From contig JALNZV010000007.1 in the NCBI GenBank assembly GCA_023229175.1, positions 18,550-82,549 of the forward strand: DNA of 64,000 nucleotides. The letters run 5' to 3'. The notes under the pieces are model-generated. The model was not told where the DNA came from. It made no database searches and saw only the letters and a program-made list of their open reading frames with translations. This document shows positions 8,595 through 62,110 of this stretch, in pieces. Origin of the DNA: Tissierellaceae bacterium (lineage in GTDB: Bacteria > Bacillota > Clostridia > Tissierellales > Tissierellaceae). The position numbers and the translations under genes were made by a program. Every line of letters starts with the position of its first letter. Within the stretch, counting starts at the first letter, position 1.

Positions 8595-10337
8595 ATGAAA
8601 CTAACAAAGTATATAGCAATCACAATAATAGCACTGATGATTTTGGCTGTCCTTAGCGGCTGTCAAATACAAGATGAGAATTTGGATATGGAAGATAATA
8701 TAGAAGACGACATAGAAGCCATAGTAGAGTACACGCCTGAGTTTGGAGGACAAATAGTTGTACCGCTGACTAATTTTGATACTTTAAATCCTCTAATGAC
8801 AGAAAATAGCAGCTACTATTTTTTTAGCAAGCTAATTTTCGAAGGTCTATTTGAGTTTGACGAAGATTTAAATATCAAAACGCAACTGGCAAAGTCCTAT
8901 AGCATAAAAGACCATGGCAGAACAATAGAAATTGAGCTAATGGACGAAATATATTGGCATGATGGTGAAAAATTAACACCAGAAGATGTCCAATTTACAA
9001 TTAACACCATTAAATACGCAGATATAGACAGCACCTACAATCAAATGTTCTCCAAGGCATTGGGATCTTTCAGTCCAAGCGATTTACGCAGGATAATCGA
9101 TATTAAGATTATAGAGGATATGACCTTCGAGATTACATTTGACAGGGCCTTTAACAATAATTTAGAAGTATTGACATTCCCCATAATTCCTAAGCATCTT
9201 TTTGAAACTACAAAAGGTGGAAACAAGGATTACGCCAGTGCATTGGAGGTCAACAATTATACACCCATAGGCACAGGGCCATTTGTATTCCAATCATATG
9301 AAAAGATGAAGCAAATAACCTTAATTGCAAACGATAATTATAGGAGAAGCAGGCCCTATATCGACAATATAACAGGAAAGGTATTAGAGAATGAAGAAGA
9401 TATACTAACAGCATTTGAAACAGGGCAAATAAATATGGCAACAACCATAGGAGTAGACTGGGACAAGTATAAGCAAAACAATAGAATAAAAACATACGAA
9501 TTTGTTTCAAACAACTATGAATTCTTAGGGTTCAACTTTAAAAATGAAGTTTTCTCCGAAGAAAATGGAAATAACCTGAGAAAGGCAATGGTTTATGGAA
9601 TAGATAGACAATCCATTATCCAAAATCTATACCTTGGCCACGGCACTCAAATAGATGTGCCGATACATCCAGACTCATGGTTATTGTCATCAAAGTCCAA
9701 TACATATGGATATAATTTGGAATTGGCAAAAAGTGAAATTATGAAATTGGGTTTTGAAGATACAGATGGAGACGGAATCTTAGAGGATCAAGAAGGAAAT
9801 AAACTTTCATTTAGACTGCTGACCAATTCTTATAATTTAATGAGAATGAAAACAGCAGAATTAATTAAGAACGACCTTGCAAAATTGGGAATTGAAATAA
9901 CGATTTTTCCGGAAGGGAAAAGAAGCGATGAGCTGACAGCAGAAGATATAGAAGAACAATGGAAAGAAGTGAATGATGTTTTAATATCAGGAGACTATGA
10001 CATAGCCCTTTTAGGCTGGCAAATATCAGTTATTCCCGATTTGTCCTTTGCATTTCACAGCTCGCAAATAGGATATAATACCAATTTCATAAATTACTCC
10101 AGCGAAAATATGAACCAATTATTAGAAAAGGCATTTTTGGATGGAAATAGAGGAAACAAGGTAAAAGCATATGACAAAATACAGGAGTTAATAGTAGACG
10201 AGCTCCCATATATAAGTTTATTTTTTAAAAACAAGGCTTTACTATTAGATAAAAAAATTGTAGGGGATTTGGAACCAACATTTTTCAATCCATATAAGGG
10301 CATAGAAAATGTATTTATACCGAAAGACCTGCAGTAA
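8595..10337 (+). CDS. ABC transporter substrate-binding lipoprotein, family 5 (peptide/nickel type)
   Basis: 580 aa with lipobox LSGC and the family-5 SBP architecture. No permease or ATPase genes are adjacent. Confidence 0.8.
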   Translation: MKLTKYIAITIIALMILAVLSGCQIQDENLDMEDNIEDDIEAIVEYTPEFGGQIVVPLTNFDTLNPLMTENSSYYFFSKLIFEGLFEFDEDLNIKTQLAKSYSIKDHGRTIEIELMDEIYWHDGEKLTPEDVQFTINTIKYADIDSTYNQMFSKALGSFSPSDLRRIIDIKIIEDMTFEITFDRAFNNNLEVLTFPIIPKHLFETTKGGNKDYASALEVNNYTPIGTGPFVFQSYEKMKQITLIANDNYRRSRPYIDNITGKVLENEEDILTAFETGQINMATTIGVDWDKYKQNNRIKTYEFVSNNYEFLGFNFKNEVFSEENGNNLRKAMVYGIDRQSIIQNLYLGHGTQIDVPIHPDSWLLSSKSNTYGYNLELAKSEIMKLGFEDTDGDGILEDQEGNKLSFRLLTNSYNLMRMKTAELIKNDLAKLGIEITIFPEGKRSDELTAEDIEEQWKEVNDVLISGDYDIALLGWQISVIPDLSFAFHSSQIGYNTNFINYSSENMNQLLEKAFLDGNRGNKVKAYDKIQELIVDELPYISLFFKNKALLLDKKIVGDLEPTFFNPYKGIENVFIPKDLQ

Positions 10338-10397
10338 TTTAGAATTAAAGATTTGTTGAAAAAAAGATGAAAATATAGTAAAATAATATAGTAAGAC

Positions 10398-10424
10398 ATG
10401 GACTACAATGAAATTGTAGTCCAT
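10398..10424 (+). other. Perfect 12-bp stem, 3-nt loop hairpin between the SBP gene and tRNA-Leu
   Basis: Sequence atggactacaat-gaa-attgtagtccat. No U-tract follows, so it could be a terminator or a processing structure. Confidence 0.4.
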
Positions 10425-10434
10425 AATTAAATAA

Positions 10435-10517
<83 letters not shown>

Positions 10518-10523
10518 TTGATA

Positions 10524-10555
10524 AAAACACTCCATATAATATGGAGTGTTTTTTA
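10524..10555 (+). terminator. Rho-independent terminator after tRNA-Leu
   Basis: Hairpin aaaaacactccat-ataat-atggagtgttttt followed by a T run. Confidence 0.85.
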
Positions 10556-10673
10556 TATAAAAAATTTTAAATAATGGCAATTTTGTATATTGATTACAAT
10601 ACCTAGGTATGCTATAATAATAACAAAGCTACTAGTTAGTTTAATATCAATCAAAACAAGGGGGAAGAAATCA

Positions 10674-11621
10674 ATGAAGATGAAGAGGTTTTTAAGTATT
10701 TTGTTAGCATTGTTACTATCTCTAAGTATTTTGAGTGGCTGTGCAAAGCAAGAGGCACCGCCAGTAGTCGACGACGATGCATCACAGACCCAAGTTAAAG
10801 ATACGACACAAGTCGACGCTCAAGAACCTTTAGACCCTGCAGCAGTCATACTTGAGCACACAACTACTTATCTAAACAACATACCAGAAAACAGCAACAT
10901 GATACCTGCTAAAGAAGCAATGGAACGAATTGAAGAAAATCCAGACGCATTGTTTATTGTTGACATGAGAGCTAAGGAAGATTATGACAAAGGCCACTTA
11001 CCAGGTGCAGTAAACATTCCTTTTGCTCAAATGGGTAAAAACTTAGACAGACTTCCTACAAACAAACAAATAATCATGTATTGCTACTCAGGACAGAATT
11101 CAGGTCTAGGGGTATCTACAGTAAAACTCTTGGGATTTAATGTAATTTCTTTCCAAGGCGGCATGAACTTCGGTTGGAATACATTAGAATTGGGAGAAGA
11201 TACCCTAGAAACAACAGAAAATGCACTACCAGATGCAAAAACGCCAGATTTATCGGAAGAAGAACAAATAGTATGGGATGCAGTAGCAAAATTCTTTGAC
11301 GAAGGAAAAACCTACATGGAAGCAGCAGCAGATGTAAGCGAAATATTAGAAGAAAATCCAGATGCTGTCTTTGTAGTAGACCTTAGATCAGGAGAAGACT
11401 TTGCCAAGGGTCACATAGAAGGAGCGACAAACATTGCATTTAAAGAGGTAGGAAAAAATCTAGATAAAATACCTAAAAACAGACCAGTTTATCTAGCTTG
11501 CTACTCTGGCCAAACAGCAGCGCAAATAATGACAATGCTTAGGCTAAATGGATACAATGCTTCAATAATCACAAGAGGCATGGCAGGCTGGGCTGGGGCA
11601 GAATTACCAGTCGTAGAATAA
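10674..11621 (+). CDS. Extracytoplasmic lipoprotein with two rhodanese (sulfurtransferase) domains
   Basis: Signal peptide with lipobox LSGC, then an acidic linker. There are two rhodanese repeats, each keeping the catalytic Cys loop (MYCYSGQNSG and LACYSGQTAAQ). Confidence 0.85.
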   Translation: MKMKRFLSILLALLLSLSILSGCAKQEAPPVVDDDASQTQVKDTTQVDAQEPLDPAAVILEHTTTYLNNIPENSNMIPAKEAMERIEENPDALFIVDMRAKEDYDKGHLPGAVNIPFAQMGKNLDRLPTNKQIIMYCYSGQNSGLGVSTVKLLGFNVISFQGGMNFGWNTLELGEDTLETTENALPDAKTPDLSEEEQIVWDAVAKFFDEGKTYMEAAADVSEILEENPDAVFVVDLRSGEDFAKGHIEGATNIAFKEVGKNLDKIPKNRPVYLACYSGQTAAQIMTMLRLNGYNASIITRGMAGWAGAELPVVE

Positions 11622-11685
11622 AAAGATTGGGGGCTAAGGCCCCCAAAATAGAATGCTTCTGAGAAAAATATTCGGAGGTGAGATT

Positions 11686-13014
11686 ATGAAAGAAAAATTC
11701 TACCAAAAAGCAATATTTGGTGCCGCAATCCTAATAGCATTATCAGTAGTTATTTTGTTTACCTATCAATTAACAAACAAATCAGAACATATTGCTAAGA
11801 AACTAACAACTCCCGTGGCTATCGAGCCAATAGATAGTAGCAACTGTATAGCTTGTCATACAAGCGAATCCATTATAGGTTCAGTAATAATAGAGTCAGA
11901 TGAAGGCCATGGAGGAGAAGGAGGTTGAGGCGTAGCAGGACCACAGCTGGAAGCTGTAGACATGTACTTAGTATCAAAAGATTTTTTAGAGACTTCACAC
12001 GGACAATTAGGTTGTATCAATTGCCACTCAGGTGAAAACTTACCAACTCAAGAGCAAGCACACGCCACTATGAATCCATACCCATCAGAAGATAACGACG
12101 GAGTCTGTGCTCAATGTCACGTAGGCGTAACTGAGACATATGCCAGTTCCATACACTACAATTTACATGGAATGGAAAATGGATTGATGTCATTTGCAAG
12201 CACGGATTCAATGCCAGATTCACCGGCCCATGCAGAAGTATTTGACAAAAACTGTATGAGCTGTCATGCAACCTGCGGCGAATGCCATGTCAGTAGACCA
12301 AGTAATTATACTGGAGGATTAATAAATCAACACGAATTCTTTAAGACACCTCCAATGGAAGAAACTTGCTACGGGTGCCACGGTGCCAGAACTGCAGGGG
12401 AATTCATGGGAGAAGTAGGATTTTCTGGGGATGTCCATTTCGAATTAGGAATGGATTGTATGGATTGTCACAATATAGATAATTTTCACGGCACAGGAGA
12501 AGTTGGGGAGAGAATGTGGGATGAAGCATTGCCATCATGTCTTGATTGTCATGAAGAGGAAATGTCGGGCAATTCCCAAATCGAAGCCCACAACGCCCAT
12601 GGGGATATGTTATCATGCCAAGTATGTCATGCCCAAGCAAATAACAATTGCTTCGAATGTCATGTCACATATAACGAAGACAAATCTGCATTAAAGAGTG
12701 CCTCAGACAGTAAACTGATGTTTAGAATAGGACTAAATCCAAACCCAACAGAGGAAAGACCATATAAATACGTAACTTTAAGACATATACCTACTGCTGC
12801 CAACTCCTTTGACACAGTAGAACCAAATATGCTCCCAAACTTTGACAACATAAACAATTGGAAATATTCTCCAACACATAATATCCAAAGGAGCACATTC
12901 CAAAATGAGTCTTGTGAATCATGTCATGACAACGACAAACTCTTCTTAAGAGAAGAGGACATAATAGAGTCCGACAGCAAAGAAAACTTAAGACTAATAG
13001 TTCCAAGACCATAG
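11686..13014 (+). CDS. Membrane-anchored multihaem cytochrome c (11 CXXCH motifs), read as one frame through an in-frame TGA at 11926-11928 (candidate selenocysteine codon)
   Basis: ORFs 11653-11928 and 11962-13014 share a frame, and only the TGA separates them. The N-terminal part has a TM anchor and CIACH. The C-terminal part has 10 CXXCH motifs, including doubled ones (CMSCHATCGECH), and no signal peptide. A GGAGGTGA SD precedes the ATG at 11686. Confidence 0.55.
11943..11957 (+). promoter_or_regulatory. Candidate SECIS-like hairpin downstream of the cytochrome UGA
   Basis: ACAGC-UGGAA-GCUGU, a 5-bp stem with a G-containing pentaloop, starting 14 nt after the UGA. Confidence 0.35.
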
Positions 13015-13022
13015 AGAATATG

Positions 13023-13056
13023 AAAACTAAAAGGGGAATTTTCCCCTTTTAGTTTT
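13023..13056 (+). terminator. Rho-independent terminator after the cytochrome gene
   Basis: Hairpin aaaactaaaagggga-att-ttccccttttagtttt. Confidence 0.8.
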
Positions 13057-13082: not shown

Positions 13083-14342
13083 ATGATCAAAAAAATAGGA
13101 AGATTTTTAATAAGCTTTCGCTTTGCAATCGTATTATTTATAGCTATAGCTACATATTCTATAATTGGAACAGTTATACCTCAGGGAGTTGCACCTGAAT
13201 TTTACATGGAGAAGTACAAAAGCTTTGGCAATATTATGATGATTTTGCAATTTAACAAAGTCTATAGTTCCTTTATTTATCGGGGATTGTTATTGTTTTT
13301 TCTAGTAAATCTAACAGGCTGCACCATAGATTTATTGCCATCGCAAATGAGGAGAATAAAGGACGACTATTTTCCATCACCAAGAAAAGATTCGGAAAAC
13401 TTGTGGGACCACAAGAAAGACATAGAGTTATTTAAATTACAACTATTAAAAAAGAGATTTAAAATTTACGATACAGAAAAGGGATTTAAGGCGGCAAAAA
13501 ATCGGATAGGCGTACTTGGGCCAACAGTTACCCACCTAGGTATTATTGTAATTATTTTGGGAAGCTTTTTAGGAAACTTATTCGCCTATGAAGGATTTGT
13601 AAATTTAATGCCTGGTGAGACTAAGACATTTATGGAGCAAGGATTTTCCATAGAACTGGAAGACTTTTATTTAGGTTTCAGGGAAGACGGTTCTACAGAA
13701 CAGTACTATAGCGATTTAAAGGTGTTTGAAAATGGGAAACATAAAGATTCCAAAAAAATTTGGGTAAACAATCCCCTAGACTATAAAGGCCTTAGCATAT
13801 ATCAATCCAGCTTTGGGTGGGTAAGCAATTTAAGCATCAAGGATAGTCAAGGAGATATTTTAAATCAAAGCATATTAAAAAACAATGAACAATACTTTTA
13901 CCAACCAAAACATTTAACAGTATATTTATATGGCTATTATCCAGATTTTAGCATAGATCAAATGGGACAACCCATGACCCTTAGCCAAGAAGTCAAACAC
14001 CCCCATTATGCAGTAGTGTTGTATGAGTTTGGTAACTACATTGATTCCTATATAACAGAACCTGGACAGGCCATAAAATATGAAGATATCGAAATAACTT
14101 TTGAGGACTCTTTTCTCTATACGGGCCTTATATATAGGAAGGACTTTGGATATTACTTTGTATTAATAGGGGTACTATTTTTATTTATAGGGCTATTAAT
14201 GTCATTTTACTATTATCCAAAATTCTTAGTAGTAGAAGAAAACTCCATATTGCCAATAACAAGACAAAATATATGGGGATTTACATTGCAGATGAAAAAG
14301 ATATTACAAGCAAATGATGAATCGGAAAAGGAGGAAGTATAA
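13083..14342 (+). CDS. resB: Cytochrome c biogenesis protein ResB/Ccs1 (System II)
   Basis: N-terminus FLISFRFAIVLFIAIATYSIIGTVIPQG, a large extracytoplasmic loop and a C-terminal TM helix. Confidence 0.85.
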   Translation: MIKKIGRFLISFRFAIVLFIAIATYSIIGTVIPQGVAPEFYMEKYKSFGNIMMILQFNKVYSSFIYRGLLLFFLVNLTGCTIDLLPSQMRRIKDDYFPSPRKDSENLWDHKKDIELFKLQLLKKRFKIYDTEKGFKAAKNRIGVLGPTVTHLGIIVIILGSFLGNLFAYEGFVNLMPGETKTFMEQGFSIELEDFYLGFREDGSTEQYYSDLKVFENGKHKDSKKIWVNNPLDYKGLSIYQSSFGWVSNLSIKDSQGDILNQSILKNNEQYFYQPKHLTVYLYGYYPDFSIDQMGQPMTLSQEVKHPHYAVVLYEFGNYIDSYITEPGQAIKYEDIEITFEDSFLYTGLIYRKDFGYYFVLIGVLFLFIGLLMSFYYYPKFLVVEENSILPITRQNIWGFTLQMKKILQANDESEKEEV

Positions 14343-15163
14343 TGGATATTATATACTTTGAAGAGTTGTTTTTCACTTTATCATTTATTATATATATAAT
14401 AGCTTCTTTAGGATTTTTTATATTTTTAGTATCATCGAAAGATAGTGTTGGCAAATTTGCAGTTACAGTATCATTGGCGGGATTTATTGTACACACAGCA
14501 GCCATGGTCCTTAGAATAATAGAATCTGGAAGACTCCCATTTAGCAATCAATTTGAATTTGCCAATAGCTTTACCTGGGGAATAGTGCTTTGTTATTTAG
14601 CGATACATTTTATTTATAAATTCACAGCAGTAGGTACTTTTGTAATGCCCCTGGCATTTTTAATGATGGGATATGCATCTATGCTTCCAAAGACAATAAA
14701 ACCTTTAATGCCGGCACTTCAGAGCAGGTGGCTTTCCATACACGTAGGTACTGCCATTATATCCTACGGTTCATTTGCAGTAGCGGCAGGCCTATCAGTC
14801 ATGTACTTAATCTATGAAAGAAATAAGGGAAAAGGAACCAAAAAATCCCATTTACCAGATGCGGAAATCTGCGATTACTTGAGCTATAGAGTGACTGCCT
14901 TTGGATACCTGATGCTTACATTAGTCATAGTCACAGGTGCAATATGGGCCAAAAGAGCCTGGTCAAGGTATTGGGGATGGGACCCTAAAGAAACATGGTC
15001 ATTGATTACTTGGATTATATATTCTACCTATTTGCACTTGAGATTTAATAGGGGTTGGAAAGGCAAAACAGCTGCATGGTTTTCAGTAATAGGTTTTATA
15101 TGTGTAATATTTACGTTTGTAGGGGTGAATGTATTACTGGCAGGTCTCCATAGCTACAGATAA
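14342..15163 (+). CDS. ccsA: Cytochrome c biogenesis protein CcsA/ResC (System II haem handling)
   Basis: Trp-rich WWD motif WSRYWGWDPKETWSLITW and YLHLR. The ATG overlaps the resB stop. Confidence 0.9.
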   Translation: MDIIYFEELFFTLSFIIYIIASLGFFIFLVSSKDSVGKFAVTVSLAGFIVHTAAMVLRIIESGRLPFSNQFEFANSFTWGIVLCYLAIHFIYKFTAVGTFVMPLAFLMMGYASMLPKTIKPLMPALQSRWLSIHVGTAIISYGSFAVAAGLSVMYLIYERNKGKGTKKSHLPDAEICDYLSYRVTAFGYLMLTLVIVTGAIWAKRAWSRYWGWDPKETWSLITWIIYSTYLHLRFNRGWKGKTAAWFSVIGFICVIFTFVGVNVLLAGLHSYR

Positions 15164-15268: not shown

Positions 15269-15594
15269 ACTACCAACAGAGATAATTTCAGATAAAAGAA
15301 CATGTTTATGAGTAATCGTTCATATTCATGTTCTTTGACTGTGTATAATAGGTTAAAATTTTGTAATTATGCAAATTTGTATAATTTTTAATACAAAATT
15401 AATACAATATTTACAAATATAAATTGGAATAATATTTAAACTGCAAATAATTGTATAAAAAATGACATTCTTTTACAGGGTCTAATTTATGTACATTATA
15501 ATTGTTTAATGTTATAATATATTAGAATTATTTAAGCATATAATATGTTTAATTATTTTGCGATTTATTAAAACACAATAGAGAGGTGGAAAGA

Positions 15595-16926
15595 ATGAAA
15601 CTAGAAAATCTCACTTTTAAGGGTGGGGTAGACGTACCGCACAGCAAGGCGTTGACAGAGAAAAAGTCCCTAGAATATGCTAAAGAACCTAGCATAGTAT
15701 ACATACCCTTGCATCAGCATACGGGTGCGCCTTGCGAACCCCTTGTCAAAGCAGGAGACAAGGTAAAAATAGGGCAAAAAATTGGCGAATCCAAAGCCTT
15801 TGTATCTGCTCCAATTCACTCCAGCGTATCTGGTACAGTAAAGAACATAAGCAAGATAACCACTCCAACTGGAATGAAATCCGACTGCGTGGTTATAGAG
15901 ACTGATGGCACCAACGAAGTGGACGAGTCGGTTAAGCCTAAGGGCAATTTGGACAACCTAACGCCAAAAGAAATAATTGGGATCATCAAAGAATCGGGCA
16001 TAACAGGCATGGGTGGTGCTGGATTCCCAACTCATGTAAAATTATCTCCGCCGCCTGAGAAAAAAATCGATACCATTATAATAAATGGAGCAGAGTGTGA
16101 ACCGTTTTTGACATCAGACCATAGAGTAATGCTGGAAATGCCAGAAAAAGTCGTTTTTGGACTAAAGGCAATAATGAAAGCATTGGGAGTTGAGAGGGGA
16201 TTCATAGGCGTAGAGACCAACAAAATGGATGCCGTTGATTCTCTTAGATCAGTAATACAAGAAGGCGACAACGTCGAAATCGTCACATTAAAAGCGAAAT
16301 ACCCACAAGGCGACGAAAAGAGAGTCATAGATGCTGTCACTGGTAGAAAAGTTCCTTCAGGTGGACTGCCAATGGATGTAGGCTGTGTAGTGAGTAATAT
16401 AAGTACAGCAAAAGCTATATCAGAGGCAATTTTAGAAGGAAAACCAGTATACGAAAGAGTAGTGACAGTAACAGGTAACGGCGTAAACGAACCTAAGAAT
16501 CTAATAGTTAAAATAGGTACTACATTCCAGGAAGTAATAGATCAAGCCGGTGGATTCAAAGGAGTTCCAGGTAAAATTATTATGGGTGGACCAATGATGG
16601 GCCTTAGTCAATTTTCGACAGAAGTTCCTGTAATCAAAGGTTCTGGTGGAATTTTAGTACTAACTGAAGAAGAAGCCTTAGCAGAAAAAGAATCGCCCTG
16701 TATAAAATGCGGGAGATGCTTGGAAGTATGTCCAGTATTTTTACAACCATTATATATTTCTGCCTTCGCACTTAGAAAGGACTTCGAAGGAGCAGAAAGA
16801 CTTGGGGCCTTAGATTGTGTAGAATGCGGCTCATGTTCTTTTATATGCCCATCAAAGAGGCCATTAGTTGAATCCATAAGATTTGCTAAAAGGGAAGTCC
16901 TTGCAAAGAGGAAAAAATCACAGTAG
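15595..16926 (+). CDS. rnfC: Rnf electron transport complex subunit C
   Basis: Contains GMGGAGFPTHVKL and two 4Fe-4S motifs, CIKCGRCLEVCP and CVECGSCSFICP. Confidence 0.95.
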   Translation: MKLENLTFKGGVDVPHSKALTEKKSLEYAKEPSIVYIPLHQHTGAPCEPLVKAGDKVKIGQKIGESKAFVSAPIHSSVSGTVKNISKITTPTGMKSDCVVIETDGTNEVDESVKPKGNLDNLTPKEIIGIIKESGITGMGGAGFPTHVKLSPPPEKKIDTIIINGAECEPFLTSDHRVMLEMPEKVVFGLKAIMKALGVERGFIGVETNKMDAVDSLRSVIQEGDNVEIVTLKAKYPQGDEKRVIDAVTGRKVPSGGLPMDVGCVVSNISTAKAISEAILEGKPVYERVVTVTGNGVNEPKNLIVKIGTTFQEVIDQAGGFKGVPGKIIMGGPMMGLSQFSTEVPVIKGSGGILVLTEEEALAEKESPCIKCGRCLEVCPVFLQPLYISAFALRKDFEGAERLGALDCVECGSCSFICPSKRPLVESIRFAKREVLAKRKKSQ

Positions 16927-16941
16927 TTAGGGGGAAAATAA

Positions 16942-17952
16942 ATGGAAGGTAAAGTGTTAAATACTACAAAAGCAGAATCAGCAGTGCCTGATATGCTAAT
17001 CGTATCGTCATCACCGCATATTAGGTCCAATGAGTCTGTTGAGAGAATAATGATAGATGTAGTCATAGCTTTGATACCAGCTATGATAGGTGCAGTTTAC
17101 TTTTTCGGATTGAACGCTTTGAAATTAATATTAGTTTCTGCGGCATCAGCAGTAGCTTTTGAGGCCTTAATCCAAAAAATGCTTAAGAAAGAAATCACAA
17201 TTAAAGATTACAGTGCGTTGATTACAGGAATATTAGTTGCATTTAATCTGCCTGCAAATGCGCCATGGTGGATACCGGTCTTTGGTTCAGGATTTGCAAT
17301 TATAGTCGTTAAACAATTATTTGGTGGCATAGGGTCAAACTTTATGAACCCAGCACTGGCTGCAAGGGCAGTCTTATTAGCATCTTGGCCAAATATAATG
17401 TCAACTTATGTATTGCCTGGTGCCGACGCAGTAACCGGAGCAACACCTCTAGCCATAATGAAATTCGGCGGAGTAGACGGTACAGCCTCAGCTACAGTAG
17501 CACAGGCAGGTTCTAATTTGCCATCTATATTAGATATGTTTGTAGGCAATATAGGAGGAGCCATAGGAGAGACATCTGCAGTACTTCTATTATTGGGTGC
17601 AGCATACCTAATATTTAGAAAAGTCATCAACTGGAGGACTCCGGTTGTATATTTAGGTGCAGCAGCAATATTTTTAGCAATATTTGGTGTACCAGCTGAT
17701 GAAATAATATATCACATTTTAGGTGGAGGACTAATTTTAGGTGCGTTCTTCATGGCAACAGACTACGCCACGGGACCAATTACATCCATGGGAAGAATTG
17801 TATTTGGAATAGGTGCAGGATTTTTAACAGCCCTAATTAGGGTAAAGGGTGGATTCCCAGAAGGAGTATCTTATTCTATTCTATTAATGAACGTAGTATC
17901 TCCTTTAATAGAAAAATTCTCTGCTCCAAAAATATTTGGGAGGGCGAAGTAA
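16942..17952 (+). CDS. rnfD: Rnf complex subunit D
   Basis: Polytopic membrane protein with flavinylation-type motif DAVTGATPL. Confidence 0.93.
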   Translation: MEGKVLNTTKAESAVPDMLIVSSSPHIRSNESVERIMIDVVIALIPAMIGAVYFFGLNALKLILVSAASAVAFEALIQKMLKKEITIKDYSALITGILVAFNLPANAPWWIPVFGSGFAIIVVKQLFGGIGSNFMNPALAARAVLLASWPNIMSTYVLPGADAVTGATPLAIMKFGGVDGTASATVAQAGSNLPSILDMFVGNIGGAIGETSAVLLLLGAAYLIFRKVINWRTPVVYLGAAAIFLAIFGVPADEIIYHILGGGLILGAFFMATDYATGPITSMGRIVFGIGAGFLTALIRVKGGFPEGVSYSILLMNVVSPLIEKFSAPKIFGRAK

Positions 17953-18498
17953 ATGAAAGAGACATTAAAATTGGGGATTATATTGTTTGTATTTACAGTA
18001 GTGTCAGCGGGAGTTTTAGCTGTGTCAAACAATGCAACAAAGGGTAAAATTGCAGAGCTTGAGATGGCCGGAAGCATTGGTGCGCTACAGGAAATATTTG
18101 GCGAAGATGTTAAATTTCAACCTTTAGAAGAAAATAAGCAAAATCAAATAATAGAGGCCAATCCATCAGTAGTTGAAATATTTGAAGCTCTTAATGGGGA
18201 CAGCGTAGTAGGCTATGCCATAAAAAACATCTCAAAGGGCTTTGGTGGAGATTTACTGTTAATGACTGGATTTAACATAGATGGCACAGTATCGGGTATG
18301 AGAGTATTAGAGCATTCAGAGACTCCTGGACTAGGAGCCAGATCTGAGGAGCCGGAGTTTACAAATAGATTCATTGGTCTATCTACAGCTGATGACATTA
18401 CTGTAGAAGCCCTGTCTGGAGCAACTGGTACAACCAATGGAGTTTTAGCAGGGGTAAACTCGGCAAGAGAAATATTTAACTCTGAACTCTCAAATTAA
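17953..18498 (+). CDS. rnfG: Rnf complex subunit G (FMN-binding)
   Basis: N-terminal anchor, ETPGLG, and flavinylation motif ALSGATGTT. Confidence 0.93.
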   Translation: MKETLKLGIILFVFTVVSAGVLAVSNNATKGKIAELEMAGSIGALQEIFGEDVKFQPLEENKQNQIIEANPSVVEIFEALNGDSVVGYAIKNISKGFGGDLLLMTGFNIDGTVSGMRVLEHSETPGLGARSEEPEFTNRFIGLSTADDITVEALSGATGTTNGVLAGVNSAREIFNSELSN

Positions 18499-18518
18499 AG
18501 TACTTGGAGGTGGAATGA

Positions 18519-19124: not shown

Positions 19125-19139
19125 ATAGGGGGAAAAATA

Positions 19140-19712: not shown

Positions 19713-19722
19713 GAGGTAAATT

Positions 19723-43217: not shown

Positions 43218-44252
43218 ATGGAAATTAAATTGACACAAATGACCAAAGCCTCGGGGTGAGCCGCTAAAATAGGACCCGATGTCCTGGCGCAAGTTTTGCG
43301 TCATATACCAAAATCAGAAGATGAAAAACTGCTTGTAGGACTTGATACATCCGACGATGCAGCAGTTTATAAGATAAATGAGGAAATTGCCATGATTCAA
43401 ACTGTGGATTTTTTCACTCCCATAGTTGATGACCCTTATACATTTGGACAAATAGCAGCTACCAACGCCCTGTCAGATATATATGCCATGGGGGGCGAAC
43501 CAAAATTAGCCATGAATATAGTATGTTTTCCCACATGTTTAAGCCCCGATATCCTAACGGAGATTTTAAAGGGAGGCTATGACAAGGTAAAGGAAGCAGG
43601 AGCCATAGTGGTAGGAGGCCACACAATAGAAGATGATGAACCAAAGTTTGGATTATCGGTCACAGGATTTGCACATCCAGATAAGATACTGGCAAATAAA
43701 ACGGCTAAGGTAGGGGATTTGCTAATACTTACAAAACCTTTGGGCATAGGAATAATTAACACCGCTATCAAGGGAGAATTAGTGGATAAGGAATCTTATG
43801 ACGAAGCAGTTATGGCAATGACAACATTAAATAAATACGCTAAAGAAGTAATCGACAAAGTAGGAGGCGTAAACAGCCTGACAGATGTCACTGGATTTGG
43901 CCTAATAGGCCATGCCTACGAGATGGCAGATGCCAGTTCAGTATCCATTAGGATAGACCATAAAAAGATACCAGTAATAACAAAAGCCATAGAATATGCA
44001 AACATGGGTCTAGTACCTGCTGGTGCCTACGCAAACAGAGGGTATGTAGATGAATTTATCAAGATAAATAAGGACGTGCCAGAATATATGGAAGATATAC
44101 TATGTGACCCCCAAACATCAGGAGGACTTTTAATATCCATACCAAAAGAAAGGGCAGATATTTTGCTAGAGGAGTTAAAATCTACCCCTACAAGATATGG
44201 AATAATTGGAGAAGTAGTGGAAAAACAGGAATATCACATATACGTTGATTAA
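43218..44252 (+). CDS. selD: Selenide, water dikinase (selenophosphate synthetase), selenocysteine-containing (UGA at codon 14, 43257-43259)
   Basis: The ATG at 43218 after a GAAGGAGGTGA SD gives MEIKLTQMTKASG-U-AAKIGPDVLAQVL, in frame with ORF 43296-44252. U occupies the catalytic Cys position of the LTQ..GxG(C/U)xxK motif. Confidence 0.9.
43271..43285 (+). promoter_or_regulatory. Candidate SECIS hairpin of selD
   Basis: AGGAC-CCGAU-GUCCU, starting 11 nt after the UGA. Confidence 0.5.
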
Positions 44253-44271: not shown

Positions 44272-45690
44272 TTGGAAAACCTATTTGCCTTATTGCCAAA
44301 AGTAGACGATTTACTAGAATCAGAGAACATAAAAGATTTACTAGATTATATACCGAGAAAGCTGGTTTTGGACAGCATACGAATAGAAATAGAGGCAATA
44401 CGAGAAAAAATAAAAGGACAAAGACCAAAAGACGAAATAAATAAAGAAATTGAAGATATTCACTTTAAGATAAGGAAAAGGGCAGAGAAAAGAAATAAAA
44501 ACAAACTTAAAAGAGTTGTCAACTGCACAGGTGTAGTCATACACACGAATTTGGGCAGATCTCTAATAAACAAGGAAATAATGGAAAATATCAGTGAAAT
44601 AGCAACTAATTATTCAAATCTCGAATACGACTTGGAGACTGGAACTAGGGGTTTGAGATACAGCCATTTAGAGGAAATAATTACAGAAATAACAGGTGGC
44701 GAATCCACCATAGTAGTAAACAACAACGCCGCTGCAGTATTGTTGGTACTTAGTACCATAGCTAAGGGAAAAGAAGTCATAGTCTCCCGTGGTGAGCTAA
44801 TTGAAATAGGAGGGGCATTTAGAATACCAGAGGTAATGGAACAAAGTGGAGCTACTTTAATTTCAGTTGGAACCACAAATAAAACCCATTTAAGGGACTA
44901 TGAAAATGCCATAAACGAAGATACAGGAGCACTATTGAAAGTGCATACCAGTAACTATAGAATATTAGGGTTTACGTCATCAGTAGATTCAGAAAAACTA
45001 TTTGAACTGAGGAAAAAATACGATATACCTTTAATAGAGGACTTGGGGAGTGGAGTACTGGTAGACCTATCTAAATACGGAATAGAATACGAACCCACAG
45101 TACAAGAAAGTATAAAAAAAGGCGTCGATGTAGTGACTTTTAGCGGAGACAAGTTATTAGGCGGACCTCAAGTGGGAATTATCGTAGGTAGACGGAAATA
45201 TATAGAAGAAATGAAAAAGAACCCCTTGACTAGGGCATTCAGAGTTGATAAATTTACTATTTCAGCATTGGAAGCAACTTTAAGATACTACTTTGACGAG
45301 GAAAGAGCTATAAATGAAATTCCAACCCTAAAGATGCTGACCATGAGCATGGAAGAGATTGAGAAGAAAACTAAGGTACTTCAAGAAAGGATACTGGAAA
45401 AAATAGAGGATCCTGGGATGACAATTCATATAGAAAATAGCTACTCTGAAGTTGGAGGAGGTTCTTTGCCTTTGGAAAAGCTGCCTACAAAATGTATAGT
45501 TGTGACCCTAGAGAAAATGAGTACCCAAGCATTTGAAAACAACTTGAGAAGATTTCATATACCTATTATTACGAGACTATATAAAGATAAAATTTATTTT
45601 GATTTAAGGACAATCAGAAATGAAGAATTTGATATAATAGTAGAGGGCCTACTATATGCCTTTGAAAAAACAAAAGGAGTAATGCAATGA
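44272..45690 (+). CDS. selA: L-seryl-tRNA(Sec) selenium transferase
   Basis: Motifs NCTGVVIHTNLGRS and TFSGDKLLGGPQVGII (PLP lysine). TTG start. Confidence 0.93.
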   Translation: MENLFALLPKVDDLLESENIKDLLDYIPRKLVLDSIRIEIEAIREKIKGQRPKDEINKEIEDIHFKIRKRAEKRNKNKLKRVVNCTGVVIHTNLGRSLINKEIMENISEIATNYSNLEYDLETGTRGLRYSHLEEIITEITGGESTIVVNNNAAAVLLVLSTIAKGKEVIVSRGELIEIGGAFRIPEVMEQSGATLISVGTTNKTHLRDYENAINEDTGALLKVHTSNYRILGFTSSVDSEKLFELRKKYDIPLIEDLGSGVLVDLSKYGIEYEPTVQESIKKGVDVVTFSGDKLLGGPQVGIIVGRRKYIEEMKKNPLTRAFRVDKFTISALEATLRYYFDEERAINEIPTLKMLTMSMEEIEKKTKVLQERILEKIEDPGMTIHIENSYSEVGGGSLPLEKLPTKCIVVTLEKMSTQAFENNLRRFHIPIITRLYKDKIYFDLRTIRNEEFDIIVEGLLYAFEKTKGVMQ

Positions 45691-47597
45691 AACACGTCAT
45701 TATCGGAACAGCTGGTCATATTGATCACGGCAAAACAACTTTAATAAGGGCTATCACCGGTAGAAATACAGATAGATTGAAAGAAGAGCAGGAAAGGGGA
45801 ATATCCATAGAGCTAGGTTTCACCTATTTTGACCTACCATCTAATCAAAGGGCTGGTATAATCGACGTACCTGGACATGAAAAATTTATAAAAAACATGC
45901 TTGCAGGAGTCATGGGTATAGATATAGTACTATTAGTAGTGGCAGCCGACGAGGGAATTATGCCTCAAACTTTGGAGCACCTTCACATATTGGACCTACT
46001 TGGTATTAAAAAAGGTTTTGTAGTCCTAACAAAGACAGATTTAGTAGATAAAGAATGGATTGATATGGTAGAGGAAGAAGTAGAAAGCGAAATATTGGGA
46101 ACGTTTTTAGAAAAATCTCCAATAATTAGAGTGTCATCAACCACTAAGGCGGGTATAAACGAAGTTATCGAGATAATAGACCAATACGCCAATGAATTAG
46201 AGGAAAAGGACACCAAAGATATGCCTAGATTGCCTGTAGACAGGGTATTTACAATATCGGGTTTCGGTACCGTAGTCACAGGAACCCTTCTATCGGGGCA
46301 GCTTAGCATTGGAGAAGAACTGCAAGTATTTCCAGGACAAAGAAAGGCAAGAATAAGAACCTTACAAGTTCACGACCAATATGCGAAGACTGCCTATGGA
46401 GGGCAGAGAGTAGCTATAAATCTAGCAGGATTAAAGAAAGACGATATCCAAAGAGGAGATACCCTAGCACCTGTAAATTCCATGTCAGACACCATGATGC
46501 TAGATGTGAAGATAAAACTTTTAAAAGGTGCAGATAGATATATAGACAATAGAACTAGGCTTAGACTATACGTCGGCACCAAAGAAATCCTCTGCCGTAT
46601 TGTGCTGCTCGATAGAGAACAATTGGGGCCAGGAGAAGAGACCTATGCACAACTTAGGCTAGAGGAAGAAACTGTAGCAAAAAGAGGAGACAAATTTATC
46701 ATTAGATTTTATTCTCCCATGTATACAATTGGAGGGGGAGAAATACTAGAGCCAAATCCAAAGAAGAAAAAGCGATTTGACGAAAAGGCCTTAAAAGAAT
46801 TAGAAGTAAAAGAAAAGGGGACATCCATAGATATAACAGAAAAAATCATTGAAGATAACTCAAAGAATTTTCCAACCACAAAAGAAATTGCAGTACTGAC
46901 GTCGATGTTGGAGGAGAGCGTAAGGGATGAGGTACAAAGTCTAATGGAAATGAAAAAAGTAATCTCCTTTCAACTGACGAAGGACCTGCACGTGATTCAC
47001 AAAAACTATTATGAGGAAGTGAAAAATAGGATAATAGAGGAATTGCAGAATTTTCACAAAAAATATCCTTTGAGATGGGGAATGTCCAAGGAAGAAATAA
47101 AAAACAAATATTTAGGAAATGCAAAGCCGAGAGTAGGAGATAGTTTCCTTGACAACTTAGTAAAAGAAGGGTACCTATCACAAAGGTTAGAAAACCTTTC
47201 CATTATAGACTTTGAAATAAACCTAAGCCCCCTTCAGCAAAACATAAGGGAAGAAATATTGAAAAAGTTCAATAGTAGTCCCTACCAACCGCCAAAGAAA
47301 GAAGACTTAGACACCATAGGGAATAGCCCCAAAGGAGAAGCAGATGAAGTCTTCATATCCATGGTGAACGATGGCGACATTGTAAAACTAAATGAGGAAT
47401 TACATCTATCAAAAGAAGCATATGAAAATGCAGTAAATATATTAAAGGAATATTTAAAGGAAAAAGAAAGTATAACAACTGGTGAGTTTAGAGATCTTTT
47501 AAATACCAATAGAAAAGTAGCCATTGCCCTTTTGGAGTATTTTGACCAAATTAAACTGACCAAAAGAGAAAAGGATATTAGGGTAATAAATAAATAA
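45687..47597 (+). CDS. selB: Selenocysteine-specific translation elongation factor
   Basis: G motifs [21 protein letters not shown] and TKTD. C-terminal winged-helix repeats. Overlaps the selA stop. Confidence 0.95.
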
Positions 47598-49030: not shown

Positions 49031-49095
49031 AATGCAATTTGACAGAATTTTAAATCTTTGCTACAATACTTATTATAATAAAACATTCTTTTATA

Positions 49096-49215: not shown

Positions 49216-49241
49216 GTTGATAGTTGCGTATATTAATTTTT

Positions 49242-61951: not shown

Positions 61952-62057
61952 CCCTTGACACAAAAGTAAAACCTGCTATAATATACTAGTGTCAAGTATC
62001 ACAAGAATTTTATGGGAGTAGATGGGTGCTGGTGTGCCCACTGGTCTTCAAAACCAG
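61952..62057 (+). repeat. Direct repeat copy B (the functional selC promoter and tRNA 5' half)
   Basis: See 59911-60016. Confidence 0.9.
61955..61982 (+). promoter_or_regulatory. selC promoter
   Basis: TTGACA, 16 nt spacer, TATAAT. It is bracketed by the inverted repeat CTTGACAC/GTGTCAAG. Confidence 0.65.
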
Positions 62058-62110
62058 CTTGAGGCGTTAGGAGCGTCTTAGGTGAGTTCGATTCTCACAT
62101 ACTCCCGCCA
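62014..62110 (+). tRNA. selC: tRNA-Sec (anticodon UCA), CCA encoded
   Basis: Sequence GGGAGTAGATGGGTGCTGGTGTGCCCACTGGTCTTCAAAACCAGCTTGAGGCGTTAGGAGCGTCTTAGGTGAGTTCGATTCTCACATACTCCCGCCA. It has a long acceptor and D stems, a long variable arm and anticodon loop CUUCAAA. Confidence 0.92.

What the first reader, a model, noticed from the sequence alone, without database searches (positions are those of the whole stretch)
11686..13014. In-frame TGA fuses two ORFs into one membrane-anchored 11-haem cytochrome c: candidate new selenoprotein
ORFs 11653-11928 and 11962-13014 are in the same frame. Only TGA (11926-11928) and 11 sense codons (GVAGPQLEAVD) separate them, with no other stop.
- The upstream piece has the only TM/signal-anchor helix (FYQKAIFGAAILIALSVVILFTYQL) and one CIACH.
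- The downstream piece has 10 CXXCH motifs but begins MYLVSKDFLETSHG, with no signal peptide. Haem attachment by the ResB/CcsA system encoded just downstream happens outside the membrane, so a signal-less decahaem protein makes little sense as a separate product.
- The ATG at 11962 has only a weak GGAAG SD.
- A 5-bp stem with pentaloop (ACAGC-UGGAA-GCUGU, 11943-11957) starts 14 nt after the UGA. Its geometry resembles the hairpin 11 nt after the genuine UGA-Sec of selD in this window (43271-43285).
- selD, selA, selB and tRNA-Sec are all in this window, so the host decodes UGA as Sec.
The putative Sec sits in a Gly-rich segment (EGHGGEGG-U-GVAGP) between the membrane-proximal haem and the decahaem body. 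I do not recognise this as a described selenoprotein family.
Basis: partly seen in the sequence, partly recalled or inferred. Interest (0 to 1): 0.85.

Follow-up and report, generated by a model that had tools for sequence, protein, structure and literature searches.

The report
Selenocysteine-containing eleven-haem cytochrome c
What is annotated as two genes is almost certainly one gene for a membrane-tethered eleven-haem cytochrome containing selenocysteine, the founding example of a widespread selenoprotein family that I did not find in any catalogue I checked and that probably reduces sulfur compounds outside the cell together with a rhodanese.

Summary

**The gene.** ORFs 11686-11925 and 11929-13014 form one frame, interrupted only by TGA at 11926-11928.

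**Evidence for Sec:**
- In 82 of 82 relatives checked (window, one metagenome contig, 78 GTDB species from at least 7 phyla, two cultured strains), the stop at this position is TGA. It is never TAA or TAG.
- The upstream piece always carries an export signal and a CXXCH. The ATG at 11962 is not conserved.
- Full-length homologues have Cys at the position, and more rarely His, Met or Tyr.
- A hairpin follows the UGA and shows compensatory changes across clades.
- selD (itself UGA-containing), selA, selB and tRNA-Sec are in the window. In seven Spirochaetota species selA (with selB in six) sits directly upstream of this gene.

**Novelty.**
- The family matches no NCBIfam model above cut-off and no PDB sequence or fold.
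- It is absent from a 2026 catalogue of 119 selenoprotein families.
- It is unrelated in sequence and architecture to the recently described five-haem selenoenzyme MccSep.

**Function (inferred).** A rhodanese is a neighbour in 45 of 79 loci and is fused in some. The Dethiobacter orthologue is up-regulated on thiosulfate. I infer an extracytoplasmic, rhodanese-coupled reductase of sulfur or selenium compounds. Sec would be at, or ligating, a haem.

The parts
11686..13014 (+). Single gene for a 442-residue selenocysteine-containing undecahaem cytochrome c (11 CXXCH; U81)
   Evidence: One frame with a single internal TGA. All 11 CXXCH motifs and 10 non-motif His are conserved in at least 99% of 80 read-through orthologues. 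Homologues were found in 591 of 600 candidate genome stretches.
11686..11790 (+). N-terminal export signal / membrane anchor (MKEKFYQKAIFGAAILIALSVVILFTYQL)
   Evidence: Read from the sequence. In other clades the same position carries a lipoprotein signal with a lipobox Cys (translations). SD GGAGGTG lies 7 nt upstream of ATG 11686.
11845..11859 (+). Haem 1 attachment motif CIACH (C54, C57, H58)
   Evidence: Conserved in 99% of 80 orthologues. Every upstream piece in 80 of 80 loci has a CXXCH.
11926..11928 (+). In-frame UGA, read as selenocysteine (U81), in motif GGEGG-U-GVAGP
   Evidence: TGA at the homologous position in 80 of 80 loci, in Dethiobacter alkaliphilus and Desulfitibacter alkalitolerans and in L001. 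Cys, His, Met or Tyr in full-length homologues.
11943..11957 (+). Candidate bacterial SECIS hairpin (ACAGCU-GGA-AGCUGU), 14 nt after the UGA
   Evidence: Present in all 8 members of the window's clade, with a C-G to U-A compensatory change in L016/L018. In the other clades the hairpin starts 12-15 nt from the U of UGA and is supported by covariation. The energy of the window hairpin alone is not significant.
10674..11621 (+). Double-rhodanese lipoprotein (lipobox LSGC; active-site loops CYSGQNS and CYSGQTA), probable partner
   Evidence: Pfam Rhodanese 7e-33, two domains. A rhodanese gene lies on the same strand within 3 kb in 45 of 79 related loci. Fusions to the cytochrome exist: P0070, P0076, P0189, P0194.
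13033..13055 (+). Terminator-like hairpin plus T-run just after the cytochrome stop codon
   Evidence: Consensus scan only.
13083..14342 (+). ResB (CcsA-partner) of System II cytochrome c maturation
   Evidence: Pfam ResB 1e-52. Directly downstream of the cytochrome in 23 of 79 loci.
14342..15163 (+). CcsB/CcsA haem lyase subunit of System II
   Evidence: TIGR03144 272 bits, cut-off 188. No other CXXCH-bearing long ORF exists in the window, so this pair probably serves this cytochrome.
43218..44252 (+). selD, itself with UGA-Sec at 43257-43259 (ASG-U-AAKIG) and hairpin at 43271-43285
   Evidence: TIGR00476 383 bits. Sequence and fold.
44272..45690 (+). selA
   Evidence: TIGR00474 624 bits.
45687..47597 (+). 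selB
   Evidence: TIGR00475 365 bits.
62014..62110 (+). tRNA-Sec (anticodon UCA)
   Evidence: ARAGORN. Rfam RF01852 72 bits.

Best explanation
**Gene and product.** Positions 11686-13014 are one gene. Its mRNA is translated through UGA 11926-11928 as selenocysteine, using the selA/selB/selD/tRNA-Sec system encoded in the same window. SelB would be recruited by a small hairpin that starts 14 nt after the UGA.

**Export and maturation.** The 442-residue product is exported and stays tethered to the outer face of the cytoplasmic membrane by its N-terminal helix. In other lineages a lipid anchor does this. It receives eleven c-type haems from the ResB/CcsB system encoded immediately downstream.

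**Position of Sec.** Sec81 lies 23 residues after the first haem motif, in a Gly-rich loop that packs against the haem-rich body.

**Inferred function.** The protein is the catalytic subunit of an extracytoplasmic reductase. It acts on sulfane-sulfur compounds (polysulfide or elemental sulfur, thiosulfate or tetrathionate) or on the analogous selenium species. The neighbouring double-rhodanese lipoprotein binds and hands over the chalcogen atom. The selenolate of Sec81 attacks it. Electrons arriving through the haem chain reduce the Se-S(Se) adduct and release sulfide.

**Possible ligand role.** Sec81 may itself be the distal axial ligand of the one haem that has no conserved distal histidine.

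**Shown here:** gene continuity, TGA conservation, Cys homologues, hairpin covariation, Sec machinery, rhodanese linkage.

**Inferred:** Sec insertion in vivo, substrate, ligand role, electron donor.
For: **1. TGA conservation.**
- TGA occurs at the homologous in-frame position in 80 of 80 loci, never TAA or TAG. Each upstream piece has a CXXCH.
- The same holds in L001 and in cultured D. alkaliphilus AHT1 and Desulfitibacter alkalitolerans.

**2. Truncated annotations.**
- Most of the listed database homologues are about 350 aa and cover only the downstream 79% of the fused protein.
- The Met at 11962 is replaced by K, T or E in other clades.

**3. Residues at the Sec column.** Full-length homologues have Cys there (P0112/116/118, P0141-144, P0162, P0174, P0176, P0205, P0206, P0214, P0227).

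**4. Post-UGA hairpin.**
- 60 of 80 hairpins start 12-15 nt from the U of UGA, with 41 distinct stems.
- 75.6% of cells are paired against 55.5% in shuffles (0 of 500 reach this).
- 113 cells have changes on both sides against 41 in shuffles.
- The covariation score is 0.455, against at most 0.205 for slid controls.

**5. Sec machinery.**
- It is in the window.
- selA lies directly upstream of the cytochrome gene in seven Spirochaetota species, with selB in six of them.

**6. Link to rhodanese.**
- A rhodanese is adjacent in 45 of 79 loci.
- It is fused at the C terminus (P0070, P0076, P0189) or N terminus (P0194; Chloroflexota L033/L039/L061/L068).

**7. Expression in Dethiobacter.**
- The orthologue (WP_008516925 = DealDRAFT_1917) has the rhodanese DealDRAFT_1918 as its next gene.
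- It is detected in the proteome and up-regulated on thiosulfate compared with ferrihydrite (PMC10376724).

**8. Ligand arithmetic.**
- There are 11 CXXCH motifs but only 10 conserved non-motif His, plus the invariant Sec.
- Non-Sec homologues carry C, H, M or Y at that column.

**9. Structure model.** In the AlphaFold model of the Cys-type P0144, pLDDT is 89.7 overall, 74-96 for the haem-1 segment, and 67 for the Cys loop with flanks at 86-91.

**10. Precedent.** MccSep is an unrelated multihaem selenoenzyme that reduces polysulfide and selenite, and its operon also holds a rhodanese (PMC13510729).
Against: - No direct evidence of selenium incorporation exists for any member.
- The window's own hairpin is short (5-6 bp) and thermodynamically unremarkable: z = +0.84, and rank 0.21 within its gene. 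In its clade only one compensatory change is seen.
- The 80 loci were the best-scoring matches to a Sec-type query, so they are biased towards Sec-type members.
- The covariation controls do not fully remove shared ancestry or coding constraints.
- Rhodanese was not detected next to the Desulfobacterota and Nitrospirota members.
- No electron-input module (quinol dehydrogenase) is visible next to the window gene. Only Rnf lies downstream.
- The ligand role cannot be tested without coordinates containing haems. Some homologues have Trp (a true TGG in L084), Leu or Ala at the column.
- The thiosulfate up-regulation in Dethiobacter is modest (log2 about 1.3, three peptides).
Confidence: 0.8

Rival explanations
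1. Two separate genes. TGA 11926-11928 is a genuine stop. A 7-kDa monohaem membrane protein and a 39-kDa decahaem protein are made independently, the second starting at ATG 11962.
For: - This is how all public annotations read it.
- TGA is a functional stop elsewhere in the window, in 4 of 65 long ORFs.
- A GGAAG lies before ATG 11962.
- The window hairpin is not energetically distinctive.
Against: - The downstream piece has no export signal, although c-type haem attachment is extracytoplasmic.
- ATG 11962 is not conserved.
- The stop is TGA in 82 of 82 cases and never TAA or TAG.
- The 11 codons between TGA and ATG are conserved as protein.
- Single-ORF Cys homologues exist.
- The hairpin shows covariation.
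- selA is adjacent in seven Spirochaetota loci, with selB in six.
Confidence: 0.04
2. It is a genuine selenoprotein, but its job is extracellular electron transfer to Fe(III) or other insoluble acceptors, or plain electron storage. It would resemble other Gram-positive surface multihaem cytochromes, with Sec only tuning one haem's potential.
For: - It has eleven closely spaced haems.
- It gives weak profile similarity to MtrC/OmcA, DmsE and GSU2203-type cytochromes.
- His, Met and Tyr variants at the Sec column are compatible with a purely electron-transfer haem.
- The His-type homologue sits with an NrfCD-like quinol module.
Against: - The Dethiobacter orthologue is higher on thiosulfate than on ferrihydrite.
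- Linkage and fusion to rhodanese point to chalcogen chemistry.
- Sec is costly, and in known enzymes it is a catalytic residue.
Confidence: 0.12
3. It is a genuine selenoprotein whose physiological substrates are selenium or tellurium oxyanions (selenite/tellurite detoxification or respiration) rather than sulfur compounds. It would be analogous to the Geobacter ext cluster.
For: - The best NCBIfam similarities are to ExtN and ExtM of the 'selenite/tellurite reduction operon'.
- The rhodanese partner parallels ExtH.
- MccSep also reduces selenite.
Against: - The scores are far below the family cut-offs (49.9 against 200).
- MccSep prefers polysulfide.
- Many carriers are sulfur or thiosulfate reducers, and the Dethiobacter protein responds to thiosulfate.
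- The family is too widespread for a niche Se/Te role.
Confidence: 0.12
4. An artefact of this assembly (a base-call error creating TGA), or a decaying pseudogene.
For: A single base (TGA versus TGC, TGT or TGG) separates the readings. One low-coverage metagenome contig has TGG at the site.
Against: The same TGA occurs in 81 independent assemblies, including isolate genomes. Both halves are under strong purifying selection.
Confidence: 0.01

Closest known systems
MccSep (GSU2937-2936, ExtKL), the multihaem cytochrome c selenoenzyme / polysulfide reductase of Geobacter sulfurreducens (Mihara et al., Sci Adv 2026, PMC13510729)
   Same: - It is an exported multihaem cytochrome c with one UGA-encoded Sec, annotated as two ORFs.
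- A SECIS-like hairpin lies just after the UGA.
- Sec and Cys forms both exist.
- It is encoded with a rhodanese-type lipoprotein (ExtH).
- It is found in sulfur-cycling anaerobes.
- Sec acts next to a haem with non-His distal ligation.
   Different: - There is no detectable sequence relation: NF040886 is not hit by any of 28 members.
- It has 5 haems rather than 11.
- Its Sec is near the C terminus, in an Ig-like domain (motif DGUP), rather than 23 residues after haem 1 (motif G-U-G).
- MccSep has a separate conserved Cys ligand, whereas this family has no other conserved non-motif Cys.
- It is a soluble periplasmic tetramer, whereas this protein is membrane- or lipid-anchored.
- It occurs mainly in Desulfobacterota and Nitrospirota, whereas this family also spans Bacillota, Spirochaetota and Chloroflexota.
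ExtN / ExtM c-type cytochromes of the Geobacter selenite/tellurite reduction (ext) operon (NCBIfam NF040967, NF040943)
   Same: - They give the best profile similarity to the haem-rich body: residues 95-318 align to ExtN positions 26-234 at E 2e-13.
- Their operon context also has a rhodanese. In Desulfitibacter this family sits with an FeS protein and a b-type cytochrome, like ExtO and ExtP.
   Different: - The score is 49.9 bits against a cut-off of 200.
- The alignment starts at profile position 26, so the haem-1 and Sec segment (residues 1-94 here) is not matched by the ExtN profile.
His/Cys-ligated haem enzymes of sulfur metabolism (TsdA thiosulfate dehydrogenase/tetrathionate reductase, SoxAX, DsrJ)
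   Same: By inference only: one haem lacks a conserved distal His, and a chalcogen-bearing residue (Sec or Cys) is positioned to ligate it and to form covalent adducts with thiosulfate or sulfane sulfur.
   Different: - There is no sequence or fold relation.
- Those are dihaem or trihaem proteins.
- The ligand would be selenolate rather than thiolate.
- This has not been tested structurally.
Octahaem tetrathionate reductase family selenoproteins (TIGR04315), listed as GenBank-annotated in the 2026 selenoproteome catalogue
   Same: They are multihaem cytochrome c selenoproteins linked to sulfur-compound reduction.
   Different: Only 4 of 28 members touch TIGR04315, at E no better than 1e-4 and far below cut-off. 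The haem number and Sec position differ.
DealDRAFT_1917 of Dethiobacter alkaliphilus (Front Microbiol 2023, PMC10376724)
   Same: It is a true orthologue (56% identity, P0052). Its rhodanese is next door, and the protein is detected and up-regulated on thiosulfate.
   Different: It was described there as a 10-haem 'SirA homologue' without signal peptide or TM helix. The upstream 75-codon ORF and the in-frame TGA (L082) were not recognised.

Membership tests
Bacterial selenoprotein (UGA-Sec decoding) | In-frame UGA conserved at the same position in orthologues | tested here: met
   82 of 82 are TGA, never TAA or TAG.
Bacterial selenoprotein (UGA-Sec decoding) | Homologues with Cys aligned to the UGA | tested here: met
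   At least 15 full-length homologues have Cys at the column.
Bacterial selenoprotein (UGA-Sec decoding) | SECIS stem-loop immediately downstream of the UGA | tested here: met
   For the family: a hairpin starts 12-15 nt from the U of UGA in 60 of 80 loci, and covariation is 0.455 against 0.144 in shuffles. For the window alone the result is inconclusive: a 6-bp hairpin at +17 with z = +0.84.
Bacterial selenoprotein (UGA-Sec decoding) | Host encodes selA, selB, selD and tRNA-Sec | tested here: met
   selD itself has UGA.
Bacterial selenoprotein (UGA-Sec decoding) | Selenium demonstrated in the protein | not testable with these tools
   Needs 75Se labelling, ICP-MS or peptide MS.
Multihaem c-type cytochrome | Multiple CXXCH motifs with matching distal ligands, an export signal and a maturation system | tested here: met
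   11 CXXCH and 10 conserved His. Pfam Cytochrome_C7, c3_2 and Paired_CXXCH match. There is an N-terminal anchor. ResB and CcsB are adjacent.
MccSep / ExtKL (NF040886) | Match to the family model; five haems; Sec in a C-terminal Ig-like domain | tested here: not met
   No hit at E up to 0.1 for any of 28 members. There are eleven haems. Sec is at residue 81 of 442.
ExtN (NF040967) | Score of at least 200 bits over the whole profile | tested here: not met
   49.9 bits, profile positions 26-234 of 415.
OTR-family octahaem cytochrome (TIGR04315) and GSU2204 family (NF041027) selenoproteins | Match to the family model | tested here: not met
   TIGR04315 is hit by 4 of 28 members at E no better than 1e-4. 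NF041027 is not hit.
His/Cys(Sec)-ligated haem sulfur enzymes (TsdA/SoxAX type) | A chalcogen side chain coordinates the iron of the catalytic haem | not testable with these tools
   Indirect support only: the 11 haems / 10 His / 1 Sec count and the C, H, M, Y spectrum at the column.
Any solved structure | Sequence or fold similarity to a PDB entry | tested here: not met
   The best phmmer hit has E 0.02 and is a generic haem motif. The best Foldseek E is 1.5 for a model with pLDDT 89.7.

The most novel reading that the evidence does not exclude
Sec81 is the distal axial ligand of one of the eleven haems, giving a natural His/selenolate-ligated c-type haem. This haem would be the catalytic centre of a previously unrecognised, phylogenetically very broad respiratory reductase for sulfane sulfur or thiosulfate (or selenium species), fed by a dedicated rhodanese. 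In some Spirochaetota the selA-selB genes sit in the same gene cluster, which suggests the Sec machinery there may serve this enzyme.
Probability: 0.3. Interest if true: 0.9.

Novelty: new variant of a known kind. Interest (0 to 1): 0.78.

Why it matters
**Annotation.**
- It would add a large selenoprotein family that public genomes currently mis-annotate. Relatives were found in at least 591 genome stretches, and Sec-type members in at least 7 phyla.
- Existing annotations show a tiny hypothetical protein plus a 'signal-less' decahaem cytochrome, or even a 'thiosulfate sulfurtransferase'.

**Physiology.**
- It offers a concrete candidate for the long-sought non-molybdenum sulfur/thiosulfate reductase of Gram-positive and Chloroflexota anaerobes. 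Dethiobacter, for example, lacks a canonical one.
- It would be a second multihaem selenoenzyme with no detectable relation to MccSep, which points to convergent use of Sec next to haem for chalcogen-chalcogen bond chemistry.

**Chemistry.** If Sec ligates the haem, this would be a His/Sec c-type haem. I found no report of one; the only natural Sec-ligated haem I found is a P450 in a 2024 preprint.

**Testability.** Cultured carriers exist, so the proposal can be tested directly.

Tried and rejected
- **Structure of the window protein:** I modelled Cys-type homologues instead.
- **First model (P0112):** pLDDT was below 50 across the haem-1 and Cys segment, so it said nothing about the site. 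A second model (P0144), built on more full-length rows, was good. Coordinates cannot be read, however, so Sec-to-haem distances could not be measured.
- **PDB searches:** Foldseek with both models and phmmer against PDB sequences gave only noise.
- **Search with the 80-residue N-terminal piece:** it found only 20 close relatives and did not help depth.
- **Folding energy of the window hairpin:** not distinguishable from shuffles and only rank 0.21 within its own gene. I rejected it as evidence on its own.
- **Single fixed structure for all 80 hairpins:** this fits only the majority register. The Desulfobacterota register is shifted by 1 and the window's clade by 6 in the i+j sum. The covariation figures are therefore conservative.
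- **Code 4/25 reassignment of TGA:** rejected, because TGA ends four ordinary genes in the window. The 'W' in P0004 is a TGA mistranslated by the source. The W in P0194 is a real TGG, on a contig with 1.9x coverage.
- **Rnf as partner:** rnfC is adjacent only in L002 and L024, so I did not include it.
- **Literature:** searches for an earlier description found MccSep, the 2026 catalogue and the Dethiobacter paper, but no report of this family as a selenoprotein.
Full report
**1. The observation**

- ORF 11653-11928 and ORF 11962-13014 share a frame. Between them lie TGA (11926-11928) and eleven sense codons (GVAGPQLEAVD).
- The probable start is ATG 11686, 7 nt after GGAGGTG. The read-through product has 442 residues.
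- It has a hydrophobic N-terminal anchor, a first haem motif C54-I-A-C57-H58 (11845-11859), the UGA codon at residue 81, and ten further CXXCH motifs.
- The Sec machinery is in the window. tRNA-Sec is at 62014-62110 (ARAGORN and Rfam). selD, selA and selB all score well above their NCBIfam cut-offs. selD has its own UGA at 43257-43259, in the classic ASG-U-AAK context.
- TGA is otherwise a rare but real stop here. It ends 4 of 65 long ORFs; the three I checked, including selA/selB, are four-base start-stop overlaps.

**2. Comparative test of the in-frame TGA**

A protein search with the fused sequence found 728 relatives.
- Most of the 120 best listed are about 350 residues and cover only the downstream 79%. 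Gene callers everywhere stop at the same place.
- One apparently full-length hit (P0004) has 'W' at the site. Its DNA has TGA.

I fetched the best 80.
- In every locus where the region could be read, the last stop upstream of the body is TGA. It lies 108-117 codons before the CH[AST][TS]CGxCH motif, and the piece upstream of it contains a CXXCH. That is 78 species plus the window and L001.
- The species are Bacillota, Spirochaetota, Chloroflexota, Desulfobacterota, Nitrospirota, an actinomycete and a Phycisphaerae member.
- The isolate genomes of Dethiobacter alkaliphilus AHT1 and Desulfitibacter alkalitolerans show the same.
- The Met codon at 11962 is not conserved; it is K, T or E elsewhere.
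- The upstream pieces carry either a TM anchor or a lipoprotein signal.

'Two genes' and 'assembly error' are therefore excluded for practical purposes.

**3. Cys and other residues at the site**
- Three Bipolaricaulota proteins from the first search are single ORFs with Cys at the position.
- An exhaustive HMMER search with one of them returned roughly as many full-length non-TGA forms as truncated Sec-type pieces among the top 150 cluster representatives.
- At the aligned column:
  - Cys is commonest, in at least 15 proteins, and is doubled to CC in three.
  - His occurs in P0159, and is adjacent to the column in P0150 and P0154.
  - Met occurs in P0151, and in P0270 by eye.
  - Tyr occurs in P0163, P0187 and P0189.
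  - Trp occurs in a few. It is a real TGG in the one case I could check, on a contig with 1.9x coverage.
  - Leu or Ala occur rarely.

**4. The RNA element**
- Folding 48 nt from each UGA shows a hairpin in almost all loci.
- In 60 of 80 the stem starts 12-15 nt from the U of UGA. Loops are GUU, AGGU or AGUUA, and there are 41 distinct stem sequences.
- Stems differ by clade while keeping complementarity:
  - GGCUCC/GGAGCC and GCCUCC/GGAGGC in Chloroflexota
  - GCCCCUC/GAGGGGC in Desulfobacterota
  - GCGCCGGA/UUCGGCGC in Spirochaetota
  - the mirror-image GGAGCC/GGCUCC in L081
- On the majority register, 75.6% of cells pair against 55.5% in shuffles (0 of 500 shuffles reach this).
- 113 cells have changes on both sides, against 41 in shuffles.
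- The covariation score is 0.455, against 0.144 for shuffles and at most 0.205 for slid controls.
- The post-UGA window ranks in the best 5% of windows of its own gene in 35 of 80 loci.
- The window's clade (8 sequences) has the hairpin 4-5 nt further downstream, as ACAGCU-GGA-AGCUGU. L016 and L018 show one compensatory C-G to U-A change, which costs an Ala-to-Thr substitution.
- Taken alone, the window hairpin is not significant (z = +0.84). Its size and distance match the selD element of the same genome.

**5. Genomic context**
- In the window the gene order is: double-rhodanese lipoprotein (10674-11621), cytochrome, terminator-like hairpin, ResB, CcsB, then the Rnf genes.
- No other long ORF in the window has a CXXCH. 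The System II pair probably serves this cytochrome.
- Across 79 related loci, a rhodanese gene lies on the same strand within 3 kb in 45. ResB and CcsB follow directly in 23, all Bacillota or Spirochaetota.
- Rhodanese is also fused to the cytochrome. The fusion is C-terminal in P0070, P0076 and P0189, and N-terminal in P0194 and several Chloroflexota loci.
- In seven Spirochaetota species selA lies between the rhodanese gene and the cytochrome gene, or directly upstream of the cytochrome gene, on the same strand. selB accompanies it in six of them. This is independent contextual support for a selenoprotein.
- In Desulfitibacter the cluster continues with an FeS protein and a b-type cytochrome. 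The His-type homologue sits with an NrfH-like protein, an FeS protein and an NrfD-like protein. These are plausible quinol-oxidising input modules. None is visible beside the window gene.

**6. What is known**
- NCBIfam gives only sub-threshold, generic multihaem hits. The best is ExtN at 49.9 bits against a cut-off of 200.
- None of 28 family members touches ExtKL (NF040886) or the GSU2204 family. Four touch the OTR octahaem model, at E no better than 1e-4.
- These three are the only CXXCH-type entries among the 119 families in the 2026 catalogue of prokaryotic selenoproteins (PMC13188914).
- MccSep, the ExtKL protein, was characterised in 2026 as a five-haem polysulfide/selenite reductase (PMC13510729). 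Its Sec325 lies in a C-terminal Ig-like domain and acts next to a His/Cys-ligated haem. It is the closest functional precedent, but it is unrelated in sequence and architecture.
- The Dethiobacter orthologue (WP_008516925 = DealDRAFT_1917, with the rhodanese DealDRAFT_1918 next door) was reported as a 10-haem protein without signal peptide or TM helix. It was called a 'SirA homologue', had earlier been mis-named a sulfurtransferase, and was significantly up-regulated on thiosulfate against ferrihydrite. Selenocysteine is not mentioned (PMC10376724).
- RefSeq names the truncated products 'multihaem c-type cytochrome' or 'hypothetical protein'.
- There is no relative among solved structures by sequence or by fold.

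**7. Mechanism**

*Shown:* one gene; a conserved UGA; a SECIS-like element; an export signal; eleven haem motifs; dedicated maturation genes; linkage to rhodanese.

*Inferred:* the protein sits on the outer face of the membrane with the rhodanese lipoprotein. Both rhodanese domains keep the catalytic Cys, in the loops CYSGQNS and CYSGQTA. The rhodanese would deliver a sulfane sulfur (or selenium) atom to Sec81. The Se-S adduct would then be reduced by electrons from the haem chain.

Two observations suggest that Sec81 may itself ligate a haem.
- In 80 Sec-type sequences there are eleven CXXCH motifs but only ten conserved non-motif histidines (453-residue numbering, from the ATG at 11653: 116, 137, 168, 227, 262, 279, 313, 316, 378, 409). 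The invariant Sec is the eleventh candidate ligand, and there is no other conserved Cys or Met.
- The residues that replace Sec in homologues are Cys, His, Met and Tyr. These are the classical haem axial ligands.

The AlphaFold model of a Cys-type homologue (pLDDT 89.7) packs the haem-1 segment confidently on the body. The Cys loop has intermediate confidence. This argues against a floppy linker. I could not read coordinates, so the ligand role stays a hypothesis, at about 0.3.

A natural Sec-ligated P450 was reported in a 2024 preprint. The novelty would therefore be a His/Sec c-type haem, not Sec-haem ligation as such.

**8. Caveats**
- There are no selenium data for any member.
- The 80 loci are biased towards Sec-type sequences.
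- The covariation controls cannot fully remove phylogeny and coding constraints.
- The substrate and the electron donor are inferred.
- Rhodanese was not found beside the Desulfobacterota and Nitrospirota members.

**9. Verdict**

This is a real feature, correctly read by the first stage. It is a selenocysteine-containing undecahaem cytochrome c and belongs to a large family absent from the selenoprotein catalogue and curated models I checked. Multihaem selenoenzymes are now a known kind, so I rate it a new variant of a known kind. I give it high interest, because the family is broad, is mis-annotated everywhere, can be tested in cultured organisms, and may carry an unprecedented haem ligation.

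Noticed in passing
L006 1626-7368 (also L007, L010, L011, L015, L019, L027): In Spirochaetota (Sphaerochaetaceae) relatives, selA lies directly upstream of the cytochrome gene on the same strand, and selB accompanies it in all but L015. In several loci they sit between the rhodanese gene and the cytochrome gene. The Sec machinery thus appears to be part of this gene cluster.
   Followed up: partly
window 15586-20532: A complete rnfCDGEAB-like cluster starts 423 nt after ccsB. The same order occurs in the close relative L002, and rnfC is near the gene in L024. Whether Rnf could feed electrons to this outward-facing cytochrome, as proposed for MmcA-Rnf in Methanosarcina (from my own knowledge), is open. 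Adjacency is not general (3 of 80 loci).
   Followed up: partly
window 43218-43295: The mechanical ORF list starts selD at TTG 43296. The real gene starts at ATG 43218 and reads through UGA 43257-43259 (MEIKLTQMTKASG-U-AAKIG), so selD is a second selenoprotein gene in the window.
   Followed up: yes
window 49087-49219: A c-di-AMP riboswitch (Rfam RF00379, 108.6 bits) lies upstream of an ABC-transporter ATPase-like ORF at 49327-50436.
   Followed up: no
window, all long ORFs: Stop codon use is TAA 48, TAG 13, TGA 4. Three of the four TGA stops (34744-34746, 35430-35432, 45688-45690) are four-base overlaps with the next gene's start, including selA/selB; the fourth (36680-36682) is not.
   Followed up: partly
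NCBIfam NF040967 vs NF040968: The model named 'FeS_ExtO' (a b-type cytochrome iron-sulfur subunit) matches this c-type cytochrome over the same residues (95-318), the same profile positions (26-234) and almost the same score as 'cytc_ExtN'. The two models look near-duplicate, or one is mislabelled.
   Followed up: no
L085 1104-5906: A His-type homologue (P0159, His at the Sec column, with extra C-terminal haem motifs) is followed by a small NrfH-like cytochrome, an Fer4_11 FeS protein and an NrfD-like membrane protein. This is a likely quinol-dehydrogenase input module for this kind of cytochrome.
   Followed up: partly
L083 6127-8860: In Desulfitibacter alkalitolerans the Sec-type cytochrome is followed by a rhodanese, an FeS protein (Fer4_11) and a b-type cytochrome (Ni_hydr_CYTB). 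This resembles the ExtH/ExtN/ExtO/ExtP set of Geobacter.
   Followed up: no
L084 627-655: One metagenome contig (coverage 1.9x) has TGG (Trp) where relatives have TGA. Several other database proteins (P0145, P0172, P0173, P0236) also show W at or next to the column. I could not tell whether these are errors, code-4 gene calls or real Sec-to-Trp losses.
   Followed up: partly
window 10435-10517: A tRNA-Leu(GAG) gene lies immediately upstream of the rhodanese gene. A long spurious ORF on the minus strand (10245-10580) overlaps it.
   Followed up: no
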